A stretch of DNA of 64,000 nucleotides from Lytechinus pictus (taxonomy: Eukaryota): contig NC_087249.1 in NCBI RefSeq assembly GCF_037042905.1, positions 47,430,001-47,494,000 of the forward strand. The letters are read 5' to 3'. Below, piece by piece: positions 18,001-40,900 of the stretch (position 1 is its first letter; each line of letters starts with the position of its first letter). The position numbers are program-made.

Positions 18001-21000
18001 TCTTAACCTGATTAATTGTCGATTAAAAATATTGGAAGTTGACAATTATGTTAACTTTAACAAATTTTTGATAAATCCTTGATAACGTATCTGTTCCATG
18101 ATTCTGCAGACACGTTGTATAAAACATATCTCACACAATTAACAAAGCTCTTGAACACGTTAAATTAACGACGGCAACTCTAACTGCTAAAGTTGTAATA
18201 TACCGAAGTAAATGAAATAAATACACAAGTTCTACCTAAACAAAATCCTAGATAAGGGGAGCGTTTAATGAAATGACTTGTCGGACGTTTTATCTGACAG
18301 TTACAATAGCAACAGTGATTCTCAGCAAAAATCAAAATCACGGGAAGTTGTTCGATCTGACAACTTGTCGGATGAAAATGTTGATGAAACGCTCACTTGG
18401 GCCCTTTAATACTTTATTGAATGCCAAGCTGTAACTCACCGTTTTCACACTGAGATCCATAGTATTCTGACGTACAGTGGCAAGAGAGGAATTCCCCGGT
18501 TTCTGTGTCACCCTGGCACGTTCCTCCGTTCGAACACACGGGACCAATGCAACCAAGTGCTAAAATATGAATAACACACTGTTAAAACTAGGGTGTTAAA
18601 AACTACACCAGTTGGTGTCTACAGAGGAGCACATTTTCAGTTGTTAAATTACACCCTAGAGATTGAACATGACACCAAAGAAAGTAACACCATTCAACAA
18701 TTTAATCATCACCACCATTTTTCAATTTTTAGTTAATCCCTTTATTTTTTATAAGAAAACTAAAAACGTTATTATAACTAAATAAAATGGAATCTGATGA
18801 AAAAAAGTACCTCACAAACACACAAGCACACCCTCACACCAACATACACCCCATGCTGAACATTTTAGTTGCGTAGAAGACACAAAATATTAACATGGGC
18901 TTTTGATTTTTATGAGAGCATACAAATAAAACTGAGAGGGGGAAGATGGTGAGAGAGACAGATACATGAGACAAAGAGAGGAGGGTGGGGAGAGAGAGAG
19001 GTGGAGAATGGAAGTTTCTCTCATTTGAGTGAATTCCGAATAGAATATACCAAAATTAAGATCGAGTAAAGAAGAAATCTTGAAATCATGAAGCAGGCAA
19101 AGAGGGAAGAGAACTTGAAGCTCAATCTATTCAGCCTTTTCCTTAATTTATGTTTTCCGTTGGGAATATAGAATACGGTGTACACTCACCGTAGCTTAAA
19201 ACAATAGTTTCACCGTCCAAGATGGCAATTGCAGCATGACAGTCTGTGGAATATGCCGATACGTCAGCGCATTAAAACTTACCCGTTTGACATTCATCTC
19301 CAGTGAAGCCCTCACGGCACAAACAGGTGTAGAACTCAGAGACAGCGACGCAAGTTCCTCCGTTATCACAAGGACTAGAGCTCCAGCATGGATGAACTAA
19401 TTCGTCAAAAAGGGAGAGAATATCAATACTAATTCTTTCTCAATCGTTGTGATTCCACATGATTCGGGCTTTTTCACAGACAGGCTGCTCCTATCATTGC
19501 AAATTTGTAATNNNNNNNNNNNNNNNNNNNNNNNNNNNNNNNNNNNNNNNNNNNNNNNNNNNNNNNNNNNNNNNNNNNNNNNNNNNNNNNNNNNNNNNNN
19601 NNNNNNNNNNNNNNNNNNNNNNNNNNNNNNNNNNNNNNNNNNNNNNNNNNNNNNNNNNNNNNNNNNNNNNNNNNNNNNNNNNNNNNNNNNNNNNNNNNNN
19701 NNNNNNNNNNNNNNNNNNNNNNNNNNNACTACTCCTACTTACTCCTTTTACTACTCCTACTCCTACTACTACTACTACTACTAATATTAATGATAATAAT
19801 AAGAAGAAGAAGAAGAGGAAGAGAAGAGAAGAAGATGATAAGAGTGAAGAAAAATATAAACAAAAATAGATTAAGAATTAGAACAAGTATGAAAGTGATA
19901 ATTATACTACTGATGATTATGGTGGAGGTATGACCATGATATTATAATGAGAAAAGGGACAAGATCAAAGAGAACAAGAAGGATATATTACCATTTTCAC
20001 ATAAAGGACCAGTGATGAGGGGTGAACTGCTGATACATTCTGCTTCAAAGGAATCACTGACTTTGCAGAGGCAGTCATTCTCGCATGGATTCGGTATACA
20101 TGGATCATCTGAAATATAAATTAGAGCACACTCTTAACATGTTGGGCAACACACTGTCCACACAAGATTTGGTTAAAAACCTTATCCAACTCTGGATATT
20201 TTTCAACCAATGTTTAGTATTCACCCAAATCACTCATTATTGGTTTAAAACTTCCCAGAATTGGATAAAGTGTTAACCAATTGTTGTGTGGACAACATTT
20301 TTAAGAGTGCAGAGTGATACGACGACGACTACTACTACTTCAACTACTACTGCTACTTCTACTACTACTACTACTTCTTCTTCTTCTTCTACTTCTTCTT
20401 CTTATTCTTCTACTACTACTACTACTATACTATACTACTACTACTACTACTACTACTCACCGCCGCTACTACTACTACTACCACTACGACTACTACTACT
20501 ACTTCTGTTACGTACTATTATCATTATACCTGTACAAGCACCTTTATCCTTATTATACATACATGAAACAGATATATTGTTTTATTACAAGACAGTAAAC
20601 ATTATTGTTATTCTACGGCGTTTAATGTGGGGAAACAGATTAATTGCGTTAGCGGTAACTTTCAAACAAGAATGCAATTCGCCTGGGGCCCGTTTCATAA
20701 AAAGTTACAACTGTTGTAACTTTGCCATTATGGCAACTACTATGGAAACGGCTCAGCAGCCAATCAAAATCAAGGTTTTCATGGTAGTTGCCAAAATGGC
20801 AAAATTACAACAGTTGTAAGTTCTCTGTATGAAACGGCCCCTGATGGCTTGCAGCATTTTATCACCATTTTTGCGGTCAGGAGATGACAACATATGACAA
20901 TGGATAATTTGGGTGAGTTTTATGTGTACGGATACACTATTGTTTAACCATAGTTTAGCTTACGAACATGCTCCTTTTATGAAAACAAGAAATGTTGTGG

Positions 21001-37967: not shown

Positions 37968-40900
37968 CGTAGTAGTAGTATGAGCAGAAGTACTAGTAGT
38001 AGTGGTAGTGATTGTAATGAGCATAAAGTAATTTTCAATTTGTATTTTTATTTGGAAAACCATCATCTCAAATCATTTTCATGACCGTTCAAAACACTTT
38101 ACTTACATATACAACATGATCAAGGCTACAAATGACCAATCATTTGGTTCATATACACTTCGTCATCTTTAATATAGTTTCATATTTTTAATTAGAGGCA
38201 TAAATTGTGTTTTGAAAAGTGAGCCTACCAATATCACAAAAGGATCCGACCCAGCTTGGAAAGCAGAAGCACGCTGGTTCACCATCAATCACGGCACAAT
38301 TGCCATTTCCGTGACACACGACCTCGGCGGGGCACCACGGAACTTTTAAGTAAGAGATAGAAAAAGTAAGACACTGATCGATAATAAAATTATGAGAATA
38401 AGACAAAGTTACACAGTAACAACGCTTCACACAACCTGGAGTGTGTTTCATAAAACTTACTATAATAACAAATTTGTAATGACAGTTAAACTTGTAGTAC
38501 GACTATTTAAAAGAATTGTATCAAATAGCTTTAATCTCGTAAAGAACCCGAAGCTCATTTAGTTAACTAGGCTGTATAAAATATTTACACGCTGCTTAAT
38601 TTTGTTTCAATTGGTATAGATACAAATGATAAGCGCAGTTTTGATATGATCTGTATACTGGCCTACGTTTAACATAAGGGGAATCTAGATTTCAGACGTA
38701 CGTAAAATTTCTAATCAAACTGCTCCCAGATTTCCATTCTGATTAAGCAAACATATTTCTTAAACAAAGACATGACTAAGCGATTTCAACTATATTGCCA
38801 ATTACCCCTACCCCGGAAAAATGGGAATACGGACTTACTTTCACAGCGATCTCCGGTAAAATATATTGGACAGATGCACTTGCTCGAATCAATCAAAGGA
38901 ACACATGTACCACCATTCTCACAAATGTCGTTCAGAAAACATTCGTTAACTGAACAGAAAGACGAATAAAGAGCGGGAGAAGAGGATAAACAGATTGGGG
39001 AGGAATTAAGTACAAGGATGGAAAGTGAAAGAAAACGTATGAGACATGAGAAAAGGTAAAGAGAAGACGAGATGAAATGGGGGTAGAGATCGGGGAGGGA
39101 GAATAACAGAGAGGAGAGAGGAGGTATGAAAAAGAAAGAGTGTGTTATGTGTGAGAATAGAACAAAATATAAATAATTTATTTTGAGAACAAAAAATGCT
39201 GAATTAAAAATCACAAAAGGCATACGTCGGAGTTACATGGCAAAAATACAATAAAATTAGGTAACAATGGCAATGGAATCATATTATTATTGTTATTATT
39301 AATATTATTATTATTATAATAATTATTATTACATTATTCCTTTTTATATCATTTTGAAAGCATAACTAACTTTCATTGATATTTTCGACAAATAAAGTGT
39401 TATTTCGATACCCTGCTAAACGAAATTTGAGCGTATACTGATGGGGGTATTCGGTCGATCATTTCATTGCAAATTCTGCGGATCGAACTCCTCCCTCATT
39501 TGCGGTCAAGTGCACATGAGACTAGGTATCCACTTTGGTTTGGTTAAGGATGTGCAAAACCTATTTTTCAAACATTCGAAAATTCCTCTTTTTCCTACTG
39601 CGTATAAAGAGAGTTAACCGATTATCATTATTTATTATTAATATTATGATTATTATTCATTTTATACTTATTCATTAATTTGTTACCTATTTCACAAAAC
39701 TCCCCAGCGATATACTGCGAGTCGGTCGTACATACTGCAATCATGTTGTTATCTGCCACGCTGCACGAACAGTTATTCATGCAGGGACTCGGATTGCAAG
39801 GGTCCTCTGCGCAGAAATAAAATATATCATTGTTGAATTGTCATGGCAACAACTTATGATTTCTTATCAAGACTATCAATTTTCCTAAGAAATAGTGATG
39901 TGACTCTGACCCCCTTTATAATATCCGCCATCCCTTTATTTTGAGAAAAAAATAATGTGATTGGCAGTGACGTCATGAAATCAAAACTTTAATCATAACT
40001 CCGCATTTTTTGGGATTTTTATCAAACATTTACGAATATTCTTTTTCCTTTTAATTTTTTCTGATTTTATTAAAGGACAAGTCCATCCCCAAAAGTAGAT
40101 TTGAATAAAAAGAGAAAAATCCAACAAGCATAACACTAAAAAATTAATCAAAATCGAATGTAAATAAGAAAGTTATGACATTTTAAAGTTTGCCATGAAT
40201 TTCTTATTTTACATCCGAGTTCGATGAAATTCCCAGTGTTATGCCCTTTTGATTTTTCTCTATTTATTCAAATCAACATTTTTCTGGGGTGGACTTAACC
40301 TTTAATGGGTATATGAACAGACAGCCTTAATAATAGCCCCACCCCAAGTCCTAAACTACTCATATCTGACCAGGTTCATCACCCATCATGCAACAGTCCC
40401 AGACAAAGGTCTGAGCAGCGTTGTCTTGAACATAATATTATAGACCCACTTGAATGATGACACACTTATTCGCTATACTCATATCCCAGTACATTCAAGT
40501 CGCAATACCCATGTTGCCACGAAGCAAAACATGTACTTTTCCTTTCAATAACGGTCCATTTTCTCTGCAAAAACACCTGATTTTTACACATTATGATAAC
40601 GATTGTTACCTACCGTTTTCACAGAGTTGTCCTATGACACCGTCAGGGCAGTAACAGGTAAACCTATCGATTTCATCCATGCAAGTACCTCCGTTGTCAC
40701 AAGGATTTGAAGAGCACTCGTTAATATCTGTGTGAGGGACAGTAAGAAGTTTATTATCGACACTAAAATATCCGATCAACATCAAACCAACATCTATAGG
40801 GTTAAACACCAGCTTTCCACGTTTATTGTTTTCATCTTCAAAATTCTTTTACCAATATATCATTAACTTGCTTCCTCTCCCACATATATTTGAATAACCT

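What the first reader, a model, noticed from the sequence alone, without database searches (positions are those of the whole stretch)
19992..39806. Two EGF modules share a relocated cysteine, suggesting a disulfide swap
Seen: EGF13 (C-NPSP-C-MNN-C-S-C...AV-C-TTDSQYIAGEF-C) and EGF17 (C-IPNP-C-END-C-L-C...AE-C-ISSSPLITGPL-C) both lack canonical Cys5 of the C-x-C pair. Both gain a Cys in place of the conserved Gly two residues before Cys3, so each keeps six cysteines. The two modules are otherwise quite divergent. Known: EGF disulfides pair 1-3, 2-4 and 5-6. Inference: the new Cys pairs with the orphaned Cys6, giving an alternative EGF topology kept by selection that standard EGF patterns could miss.
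Basis: partly seen in the sequence, partly recalled or inferred. Interest (0 to 1): 0.68.

Follow-up and report, generated by a model that had tools for sequence, protein, structure and literature searches.

The report
Two EGF modules with moved cysteine
Two of the 35 EGF-like exons of a large animal cell-surface or matrix gene have lost one cysteine of the usual C-x-C pair and gained one a few residues earlier, which probably re-routes one disulfide bridge, but which bridge could not be settled here.

Summary
The sequence facts hold. On the minus strand lie 35 one-exon EGF-like modules, all phase 1-1. Only two, exons 39806..39687 and 20108..19992, have the pattern C-x4-C-x3-C-x-C-x(9,10)-C-x11-C. 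The second is the 18th module, not the 17th. Both carry Cys where 33 canonical modules have Gly, Ala or Ser, two residues before Cys3. Both keep only one cysteine of the C4-x-C5 pair. Pfam finds no family for either.

Which cysteine was lost is not settled. Most general aligners put the retained cysteine on Cys5, with Ala on Cys4. Two of three profiles built from this gene's own modules put it on Cys4. Forced alignments differ by at most about 1.8 bits on the all-module profile.

Splice sites, exon-like GC, pN below pS and retention of all six cysteines indicate real, constrained exons, perhaps from one old duplication.

No transcript data were at hand. The three decisive tests therefore stay undone.

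Verdict: a new variant of a known kind, of moderate interest.

The parts
39687..39806 (-). Exon of variant EGF-like module M13 (120 nt, phase 1-1), the first module after twelve calcium-binding-type modules
   Evidence: AG|..|GT borders read and found in phase. Six Cys in the pattern C-x4-C-x3-C-x-C-x10-C-x11-C. No Pfam family at E<=10. 21.2 bits on the gene's own EGF profile, against 40.3-56.6 for canonical modules.
39769..39771 (-). TGT codon of the new cysteine of M13, two residues before Cys3
   Evidence: Codon list. The column holds G27/A5/S1 in the 33 canonical modules. All aligners agree on Cys1-Cys3.
39730..39732 (-). TGT codon of the single cysteine left of the C4-x-C5 pair in M13 (Cys4 or Cys5, undecided)
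19992..20108 (-).
   Evidence: Borders. Pattern C-x4-C-x3-C-x-C-x9-C-x11-C. No Pfam family at E<=10. 20.5 bits on the gene's profile.
20071..20073 (-). TGC codon of the new cysteine of M18
   Evidence: codons; column assignment.
20035..20037 (-). TGT codon of the single cysteine left of the C4-x-C5 pair in M18
3464..57631 (-). Array of 35 one-exon EGF-like modules that holds the two variants. M1-M12 are of the calcium-binding type, M13-M35 are not.
   Evidence: Regex scan. Splice borders all in phase 1-1, exon lengths 111-132 nt. Calcium-binding-type start in 12 of 35. The profile of 31 canonical modules matches Delta-like 1, Notch1/2, CELSR1 and EDIL3 best in the PDB.
40614..40727 (-). Module M12, just before M13; it lacks the packing aromatic four residues after Cys5 (Val)
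21279..21392 (-). Module M17, just before M18; it lacks the packing aromatic (Ser).
62271..62558 (-). Fibronectin type III exon upstream in the same orientation (probable N-terminal part of the same gene; not joined to it here)
   Evidence: Pfam fn3 at E 4.2e-9. Phase 1-1 borders. Weaker fn3-like pieces lie at 61696..61445 and from 60485.

Best explanation
M13 and M18 are real coding exons of a large fn3 plus multi-EGF gene of a non-vertebrate animal. Each encodes a Notch/Delta-type EGF module. In it, one half-cystine of the third disulfide has moved from the second strand of the main hairpin (Cys5, now Thr or Ser) to the facing position on the first strand (the Gly two residues before Cys3, now Cys).

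The module then still makes three internal disulfides: Cys1-Cys3, Cys2-Cys4 and new Cys-Cys6. In order along the chain that is 1-4, 2-5, 3-6. The last loop is one residue longer, so Cys6 can reach across.

The change most likely arose once, in one module that was later duplicated, and has been kept since. Its likely effect is local: a slightly different C-terminal sub-domain and junction to the next module, at two places in the array where the junction is not of the rigid calcium-binding type.

Shown: the sequences, the exon structure, the uniqueness within the array, the failure of standard models, and signs of constraint.
Inferred: the pairing, the single origin and any functional effect.
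For: - Exon reality and constraint:
  - Phase 1-1 AG/GT borders.
  - Splice scores within the range of the other exons: M13 acceptor rank 14 and donor rank 33 of 35; M18 ranks 9 and 14.
  - Exon GC 0.48 and 0.44 against intron median 0.33.
  - pN 0.36 and pS 0.66 between the two, similar to other module pairs.
  - All six Cys shared although only 12 of 32 other positions are.
- EGF descent: E about 3e-8 on the profile of 31 canonical modules; hhalign probability 96.4; G-x-x-Cys6 kept in 35 of 35.
- Cys4 kept and Cys5 lost:
  - The all-module profile aligns it so, with posterior about 0.6 (M13) and 0.9 (M18). So do the non-calcium-binding profile and one MAFFT mode.
  - This reading needs only a one-residue insertion in a loop that is 8 long in 33 of 33 canonical modules.
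  - Ser (AGC) in M18 is one base change from a Cys codon, and Thr (ACC) in M13 is one more.
- The new site tolerates a side chain: Ala or Ser in 6 of 33 canonical modules.
- Geometry (recalled, not computed): in EGF folds Cys3 faces Cys4 across the main hairpin, so the residue two before Cys3 faces Cys5.
- Single origin: the two are reciprocal best matches. They are sisters at 92/90 support with the trait columns masked. A joint clade is not rejected under the other alignment (AU p 0.556).
Against: - The alignment that underlies this wiring is not better than its rival.
  - 9 of 10 MAFFT runs and the calcium-binding-module profile put the retained Cys on Cys5.
  - So do 7 of 11 and 7 of 7 displayed PDB alignments.
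  - Forced alignments differ by 0.3-1.8 bits on the all-module profile, and the sign flips with the profile used.
  - Under the rival reading the conserved hydrophobic or aromatic site two before Cys4 is kept (Met, Phe). Under this reading it is Ala in both modules.
- No model, no orthologue and no transcript was available.
- The donor of M13 is among the weakest (rank 33 of 35).
- Both modules score only about half of the canonical ones on the gene's own profile.
- In NOTCH3 EGF1-3 most constructs with an even number of cysteines still misfold (PMC10318516, passages). An even count alone therefore proves little.
- The sister grouping is unstarred in one tree and absent in the free tree of the other alignment (8% of 200 bootstrap trees).
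Confidence: 0.4

Rival explanations
1. Same two real exons, other wiring. The lost cysteine is Cys4 (Ala in both modules) and the retained one is Cys5, which still bonds Cys6 across a loop lengthened by three residues. The orphaned Cys2 bonds the new Cys four residues downstream (a C-x3-C ring). In order along the chain this is 1-4, 2-3, 5-6.
For: - 9 of 10 MAFFT runs and the profile of M1-M12 align it so.
- 7 of 11 displayed phmmer alignments of M18 to solved EGF domains do so.
- 7 of 7 positive-scoring displayed alignments of the two-module profile do so, one of them ungapped over 25 residues to factor IX EGF1.
- Both modules share Ala, with the same GCA codon, at the Cys4 column.
- The hydrophobic or aromatic site two before Cys4 is then kept (Met, Phe). 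It is Tyr or Phe in 20 of 33 canonical modules.
- EGF domains with other wiring in the N-terminal half are known: thrombomodulin EGF5 and the AspH substrate form have 1-2, 3-4, 5-6 (PMC6817910, passages).
Against: - It needs a three-residue insertion in a loop that is exactly 8 long in 33 of 33 canonical modules.
- It needs two base changes for Cys to Ala.
- By the recalled geometry the new Cys lies diagonal to Cys4, not opposite it, so the Cys2 loop would have to move.
- The all-module and non-calcium-binding profiles prefer the other reading.
Confidence: 0.2
2. Teneurin-like use. The relocated and the orphaned cysteine do not bond each other. They are left for bonds between chains or between distant modules, so that modules 13 and 18 act as covalent cross-linking points of the array.
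For: - Precedent: in teneurins two modules of an EGF array (2 and 5) share one cysteine substitution and form inter-chain disulfides (PMC2185078, passages; PMC9058538, passages).
- Here too exactly two spaced modules share one change.
Against: - Teneurin modules have an odd number of cysteines; these have six.
- Two free thiols close together in one small module would be expected to bond each other (inference).
- No test of association was made.
Confidence: 0.08
3. The two exons are not, or no longer, part of the working protein. They would be skipped cassette exons or decaying modules whose even cysteine count is an accident of shared descent.
For: - Every exon of the array is symmetric (phase 1-1), so skipping keeps the frame.
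- Low profile scores and no Pfam match.
- Weak donor at M13.
- No transcript evidence was available.
Against: - Open frames of exact length with intact borders.
- Exon-like GC well above intron GC.
- pN below pS at a divergence near saturation.
- All six Cys, the Asn after Cys2 and the Gly three before the last Cys are kept in both.
Confidence: 0.12

Closest known systems
Canonical Notch/Delta-type (hEGF) EGF-like module, Pfam PF00008
   Same: Cys1-x4-Cys2 with Pro before Cys2, Asn two after Cys2, Cys3 in register, Gly three before the last Cys. One module per phase 1-1 exon inside a tandem array.
   Different: Only one cysteine of the C4-x-C5 pair. An extra Cys two before Cys3. The retained Cys and the last Cys are 11 residues apart, not 8 or 10. 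No Pfam family at E<=10.
Teneurin EGF modules 2 and 5
   Same: Two spaced modules of one EGF array share the same cysteine substitution, conserved in evolution (PMC2185078 and PMC9058538, passages).
   Different: There the third Cys is replaced by Tyr or Phe, with no new Cys. Five cysteines remain and the free one bonds another chain. Here the count stays at six.
Thrombomodulin EGF5 and the AspH-substrate form of factor X EGF1 (1-2, 3-4, 5-6)
   Same: EGF domains whose disulfide wiring departs from 1-3, 2-4, 5-6 (PMC6817910, passages).
   Different: There the cysteine positions are canonical and only the pairing differs. Here the positions themselves have changed.
Atypical short EGF repeats of Jagged-1 (EGF1-2) and eight-cysteine laminin or integrin EGF types
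   Same: Members of the EGF superfamily with non-standard spacing or number of cysteines, which standard classes fit poorly (PMC2725086, passages; the laminin and integrin types are recalled).
   Different: Those keep the C-x-C pair and add or shorten loops or add a fourth disulfide. None is known to me to move a half-cystine across the main hairpin.
Inhibitor cystine knots and insect defensins (1-4, 2-5, 3-6)
   Different: Unrelated folds and spacings. Among the 12 listed of 43 papers none also used the term 'EGF-like'. The resemblance is formal only.

Membership tests
EGF-like domain (Pfam EGF PF00008 and kin) | Match to a curated EGF profile above its cut-off | tested here: not met
   0 families for M13 and M18 at E<=10. 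Of the 8 canonical modules tested, 8 list an EGF family and 7 pass a curated cut-off.
EGF-like domain (Pfam EGF PF00008 and kin) | Six cysteines within about 30-40 residues | tested here: met
   Six in each, spanning 35 and 34 residues.
EGF-like domain (Pfam EGF PF00008 and kin) | C4-x-C5 doublet (the core of the PROSITE EGF signatures; patterns recalled) | tested here: not met
   The recalled EGF_1-type pattern hits 33 of 35 modules and misses only M13 and M18. The EGF_2-type pattern hits 18 of 35 and misses both.
EGF-like domain (Pfam EGF PF00008 and kin) | Homology to undoubted EGF modules | tested here: met
   21.2 and 20.5 bits, E about 3e-8 and 4e-8 in a two-sequence search, on the profile of 31 canonical modules of the same gene. 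hhalign probability 96.4. M18 matches EDIL3, DLK1 and Notch1 EGF chains at E 0.005-0.05. M13 alone gets only one PDB hit, at E 4.6.
EGF-like domain (Pfam EGF PF00008 and kin) | Disulfides 1-3, 2-4, 5-6 | tested here: not met
   Impossible as such, because one of Cys4 or Cys5 is absent. The actual pairing is not testable with the tools open here.
EGF-like domain (Pfam EGF PF00008 and kin) | EGF fold (main hairpin plus small C-terminal hairpin) | not testable with these tools
No model, so no fold search.
hEGF subtype (as against cEGF) | Eight residues between Cys5 and Cys6 (PMC2725086, passages) | tested here: not met
   33 of 33 canonical modules have 8. In the variants the last two cysteines are 11 apart.
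Calcium-binding EGF | [DN]-x-[DN]-[EQ] before Cys1 and [DN] two after Cys3 | tested here: not met
   The start motif is present in M1-M12 only (12 of 35). M13 and M18 start with D-P-C.
Teneurin-type cross-linking EGF module | Odd number of cysteines, the third Cys replaced by an aromatic residue | tested here: not met
   Six cysteines, with Cys3 present.

The most novel reading that the evidence does not exclude
A heritable alternative EGF topology. One half-cystine has jumped to the facing strand of the main hairpin, so the module is wired 1-4, 2-5, 3-6 instead of 1-3, 2-4, 5-6. It has been kept by selection in two old paralogous modules that sit at non-rigid junctions of a 35-module array. 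Each follows a module that lacks the usual packing aromatic. It would be a natural, compensated 'cysteine gain plus cysteine loss' of the kind that is pathogenic as a single step in human NOTCH3 or fibrillin, and a sub-class that current EGF models do not see.
Probability: 0.3. Interest if true: 0.55.

Novelty: new variant of a known kind. Interest (0 to 1): 0.35.

Why it matters
EGF modules are among the commonest extracellular building blocks. Single changes in their cysteine count cause disease, for instance CADASIL and Marfan syndrome.

A natural module in which a loss and a gain of cysteine compensate each other would show which second sites can rescue an orphaned half-cystine. Its retention in two diverged copies would add weight to that. 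It would also be a small, testable model for disulfide relocation.

In practice it shows that profile and pattern annotation can leave holes in EGF arrays. Here 2 of 35 modules are invisible to Pfam. That miscounts repeats and can make a continuous array look interrupted.

The finding concerns two modules of one unnamed invertebrate-type gene. Variation of cysteine patterns within the EGF superfamily is well known, so the reach is modest unless the pattern proves widespread.

Tried and rejected
- **Structure prediction.** No model, no SG-SG distance and no fold search resulted.
- **ESM Atlas.** It was closed to new sequences.
- **Solved structures.** M13 alone gave one hit at E 4.6. M18 gave 19 canonical EGF hits and the two-module profile gave 9. 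The C-terminal 25 residues of M18 gave 0 hits at E<=10. No solved chain with this cysteine arrangement turned up among these.
- **Deciding Cys4 against Cys5 by alignment.** MAFFT in ten runs, three gene profiles, hhalign and a forced dynamic-programming comparison all failed to decide.
- **Two-module block duplication, (13,14) like (18,19).** It is the best block partner for both but ranks only 66 of 528 block pairs. M14 and M19 are not joined in the tree. I leave it as a weak lead.
- **Literature.** Nine searches were run. In the listings and the passages I read, I found no description of an EGF module with a Cys two before Cys3 replacing one of Cys4 or Cys5. MUP-4 (PMC2150763) and an EGF-EGFR dynamics paper (PMC3554757) gave nothing of use. 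The search for factor IX Gly60 gave one irrelevant review.
- **Gene continuation.** I looked for it downstream of M35 and found nothing convincing.
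Full report
**What is there**

The window has 36% G+C. Its CpG observed/expected ratio is 0.78, and no Alu-head motif occurs within three mismatches. I do not take it for human. From recalled knowledge a CpG ratio near 0.8 is unlike vertebrate DNA.

A regular-expression scan of all six frames finds 35 EGF-like modules, all on the minus strand, between 57631 and 3464. A looser scan for cysteine-rich stretches finds no further module. Each module lies in its own exon of 111-132 nt with AG and GT borders in phase 1-1. 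Introns run from 215 to 2346 nt, plus one of 16358 nt.

M1-M12 begin with the calcium-binding-type motif and M13-M35 do not. A profile of 31 canonical modules matches Delta-like 1, Notch1/2, CELSR1 and EDIL3 best among solved structures. Upstream on the same strand lie fibronectin type III exons.

Every search, alignment and attempted fold used single-exon translations. The two N runs (19512-19727, 41123-41334) were left as they are.

**The observation**

M13 is exon 39806..39687 and M18 is exon 20108..19992. M18 is the 18th module by my count.

- Only these 2 of 35 modules fit C-x4-C-x3-C-x-C-x(9,10)-C-x11-C.
- That pattern occurs twice in the six-frame translation, against none in 100 mononucleotide shuffles.
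- The 33 other modules all have C4-x-C5 followed by exactly eight residues to Cys6.
- At the site two before Cys3 they carry Gly 27 times, Ala 5 times and Ser once.

Both variants carry Cys there and have only one cysteine where the C-x-C pair should be. Pfam lists nothing for either, even at E<=10. All eight canonical neighbours tested list EGF families, and seven pass a curated cut-off (ten of the 35 modules were given). A recalled PROSITE EGF_1-type pattern hits 33 of 35 and misses exactly these two. So standard annotation would leave two holes in this array.

**Are they real exons?**

- Acceptor and donor scores fall inside the range of the other exons: M13 ranks 14 and 33 of 35, M18 ranks 9 and 14.
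- Exon G+C is 0.48 and 0.44. The median is 0.45 for all 35 exons and 0.33 for introns.
- On the gene's own profile they score 21.2 and 20.5 bits. Canonical modules score 40.3-56.6, though 31 of them were in the training set.
- hhalign gives 96.4% probability of homology.

No transcript data were available. Because all exons are symmetric, skipping cannot be excluded.

**One origin or two?**

The two are reciprocal best matches (score 98 against at most 78). Outside the cysteines, however, they share only 12 of 32 positions, no more than M18 shares with some canonical modules.

- With the trait columns masked (new Cys, Cys4, Cys5 and the private insert) and the two identical copies M28 and M29 left out, a likelihood tree on the L-INS-i alignment joins them with 92/90 support, which is not starred.
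- On the profile-based alignment the free tree does not join them (8% of 200 bootstrap trees). Yet the tree that holds them together has a log-likelihood 1.02 higher, and the AU test does not reject it (p 0.556).
- Synonymous difference is near saturation (pS 0.66) with pN 0.36, in line with other module pairs.

If they are old paralogues, keeping all six cysteines at the identity rate of the other positions has a probability of about 0.003. I read this as one old event followed by duplication and retention, held with moderate confidence.

**Which cysteine was lost**

For loss of Cys4 (retained Cys on Cys5, Ala on Cys4 in both modules, three-residue insert in the last loop):
- 9 of 10 MAFFT runs.
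- The profile of M1-M12.
- 7 of 11 displayed alignments of M18 to solved EGF domains that cover the site.
- 7 of 7 positive-scoring displayed alignments of the two-module profile, one of them ungapped over 25 residues.

For loss of Cys5 (retained Cys on Cys4, Thr or Ser on Cys5, one-residue insert):
- One MAFFT mode.
- The all-module profile, with posterior about 0.6 and 0.9.
- The profile of the non-calcium-binding modules.

hhalign aligns the retained Cys to neither. When the retained Cys is forced onto one or the other state, scores differ by 0.3-1.8 bits on the all-module profile. The sign changes with the profile used. Sequence alone cannot decide.

**Mechanism**

Three wirings are possible.

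From recalled knowledge of EGF structures, Cys3 faces Cys4 across the main hairpin. The residue two before Cys3 therefore faces Cys5 on the same side of the sheet. Moving the half-cystine across would need only a small shift of Cys6, which fits a loop one residue longer. The site accepts Ala or Ser in 6 of 33 modules, so a side chain fits. The codons allow a short path, with Ser AGC in M18 and Thr ACC in M13.
2. *The rival wiring:* Cys5-Cys6 is kept and Cys2 closes onto the new Cys in a C-x3-C ring. This keeps the hydrophobic or aromatic site before Cys4 (Met, Phe). It costs a three-residue insert in an otherwise invariant loop. By the same recalled geometry the new Cys is diagonal to Cys4 rather than opposite it.
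3. *A teneurin-like use for cross-links.* In teneurins EGF modules 2 and 5 each have five cysteines and bond another chain (passages of PMC2185078 and PMC9058538). This is less likely here because the count is even.

An even count is not enough in itself. In NOTCH3 EGF1-3 most even-numbered cysteine mutants still misfold, and rescue comes mainly from removing a bonded pair (passages of PMC10318516). Alternative pairing in EGF domains with canonical positions is known: 1-2, 3-4, 5-6 in thrombomodulin EGF5 and the AspH substrate (passages of PMC6817910). More generally, disulfides are only modestly conserved among homologues (passages of PMC2628669).

**Context that may bear on function**

M13 is the first module after the calcium-binding block. 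In Notch-type arrays an aromatic residue four after Cys5 packs on the main hairpin of the next calcium-binding module and makes a rigid rod. Junctions without calcium binding are bent or flexible (passages of PMC4826273).

Here 27 of 33 canonical modules have that aromatic. The six exceptions include M12 (Val) and M17 (Ser), the modules just before the two variants. This is a post hoc observation, with a chance of about 0.03. It fits the idea that the variants sit at special junctions, but it is a lead and no more.

**What stayed unchecked**

There is no distance between the sulfur atoms and no fold search.
The genome collection on offer holds bacteria and archaea only, so I did not use it.
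- *Exon inclusion:* no transcript data.
- *Supplements of papers were closed.* Additional file 3 of PMC2725086 (loop spacings in 56 EGF structures) and Figure S1 of PMC4826273 could bear on loop lengths and packing residues, and I did not see them.
- *Papers:* of every paper cited I saw passages returned by term look-ups, not the whole text.
- *Priority:* nine literature searches turned up no description of this arrangement. That does not show it is unpublished.

**Verdict**

The sequences are as described and are not chance. The two exons look real and constrained. Standard EGF models miss them. The proposed disulfide swap is a reasonable hypothesis, but the specific claim that Cys5 was lost and Cys6 re-partnered is one of two readings that sequence cannot separate.

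I rate it a new variant of a known kind, interest 0.35.

Noticed in passing
27687-34197 (+), inside the 16358-nt intron between M16 and M17: A gene nested on the opposite strand. It has three scavenger-receptor cysteine-rich exons (Pfam SRCR at E 1e-26 to 1e-29; best PDB matches CD163/M130). A last exon carries a transmembrane stretch and a stop at 34197. A candidate signal-peptide ORF starts at 27687.
   Followed up: partly
28547-28618 (-): A tRNA-like gene of 72 nt (Rfam tRNA, 58.9 bits) with anticodon TCA, followed by a T run. ARAGORN calls it tRNA-SeC by the anticodon only, and the length is that of an ordinary tRNA. There is a single copy in the window. It may be a suppressor-like tRNA, a pseudogene or the head of a tRNA-derived repeat.
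   Followed up: partly
9439-12978 (-): M26/M27 against M28/M29: A tandem duplication of about 2 kb covering a two-exon unit, introns included, at 91-99% DNA identity. The duplicated modules are identical in protein (pS 0.04 and 0.07, pN 0). It is either a recent duplication or an assembly doubling.
   Followed up: partly
40614-40727 (M12) and 21279-21392 (M17), minus strand: The modules just before each variant module are two of only six canonical modules (of 33) that lack the aromatic residue four after Cys5. In Notch-type arrays that residue packs on the next module. This was noticed post hoc, with a chance of about 0.03.
   Followed up: partly
24970-25133 and 26782-26985: Two arrays of a 16-nt unit in inverted orientation, 82% complementary and about 1.65 kb apart, inside the large intron. 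The layout resembles the ends of a non-autonomous transposon.
   Followed up: partly
38839-38949 (M14), 38229-38342 (M15), 19283-19396 (M19), minus strand: Only these three modules have five residues between Cys1 and Cys2 together with the short 8-residue hairpin. M14 and M19 directly follow the two variant modules. This hints at an old two-module duplication, but the support is weak.
   Followed up: partly
39769-39777 (M13) and 20071-20079 (M18), minus strand: The new cysteine creates N-x-C in both modules, and an N-C-S glycosylation sequon in M13. M13 also keeps the O-fucose-type C2-x4-S-C3 motif, while M18 does not.
   Followed up: no
19512-19727 and 41123-41334: Two N runs (216 and 212 bases) lie in the introns M18-M19 and M11-M12. 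They were left unfilled. An exon hidden there cannot be excluded, which would change the module numbering.
   Followed up: no
20328-20503 and 37929-38009: Long trinucleotide arrays, (ACT) about 59 copies and (AGT) about 27 copies, lie in introns. The first is about 220 nt upstream of the M18 exon and the second about 50 nt upstream of the M16 exon.
   Followed up: no
22931-23218 (-): An open frame with a weak DEAD/DEAH helicase motif-I match (E 0.015, below the cut-off). It is probably a fragment of a mobile element in the large intron.
   Followed up: no
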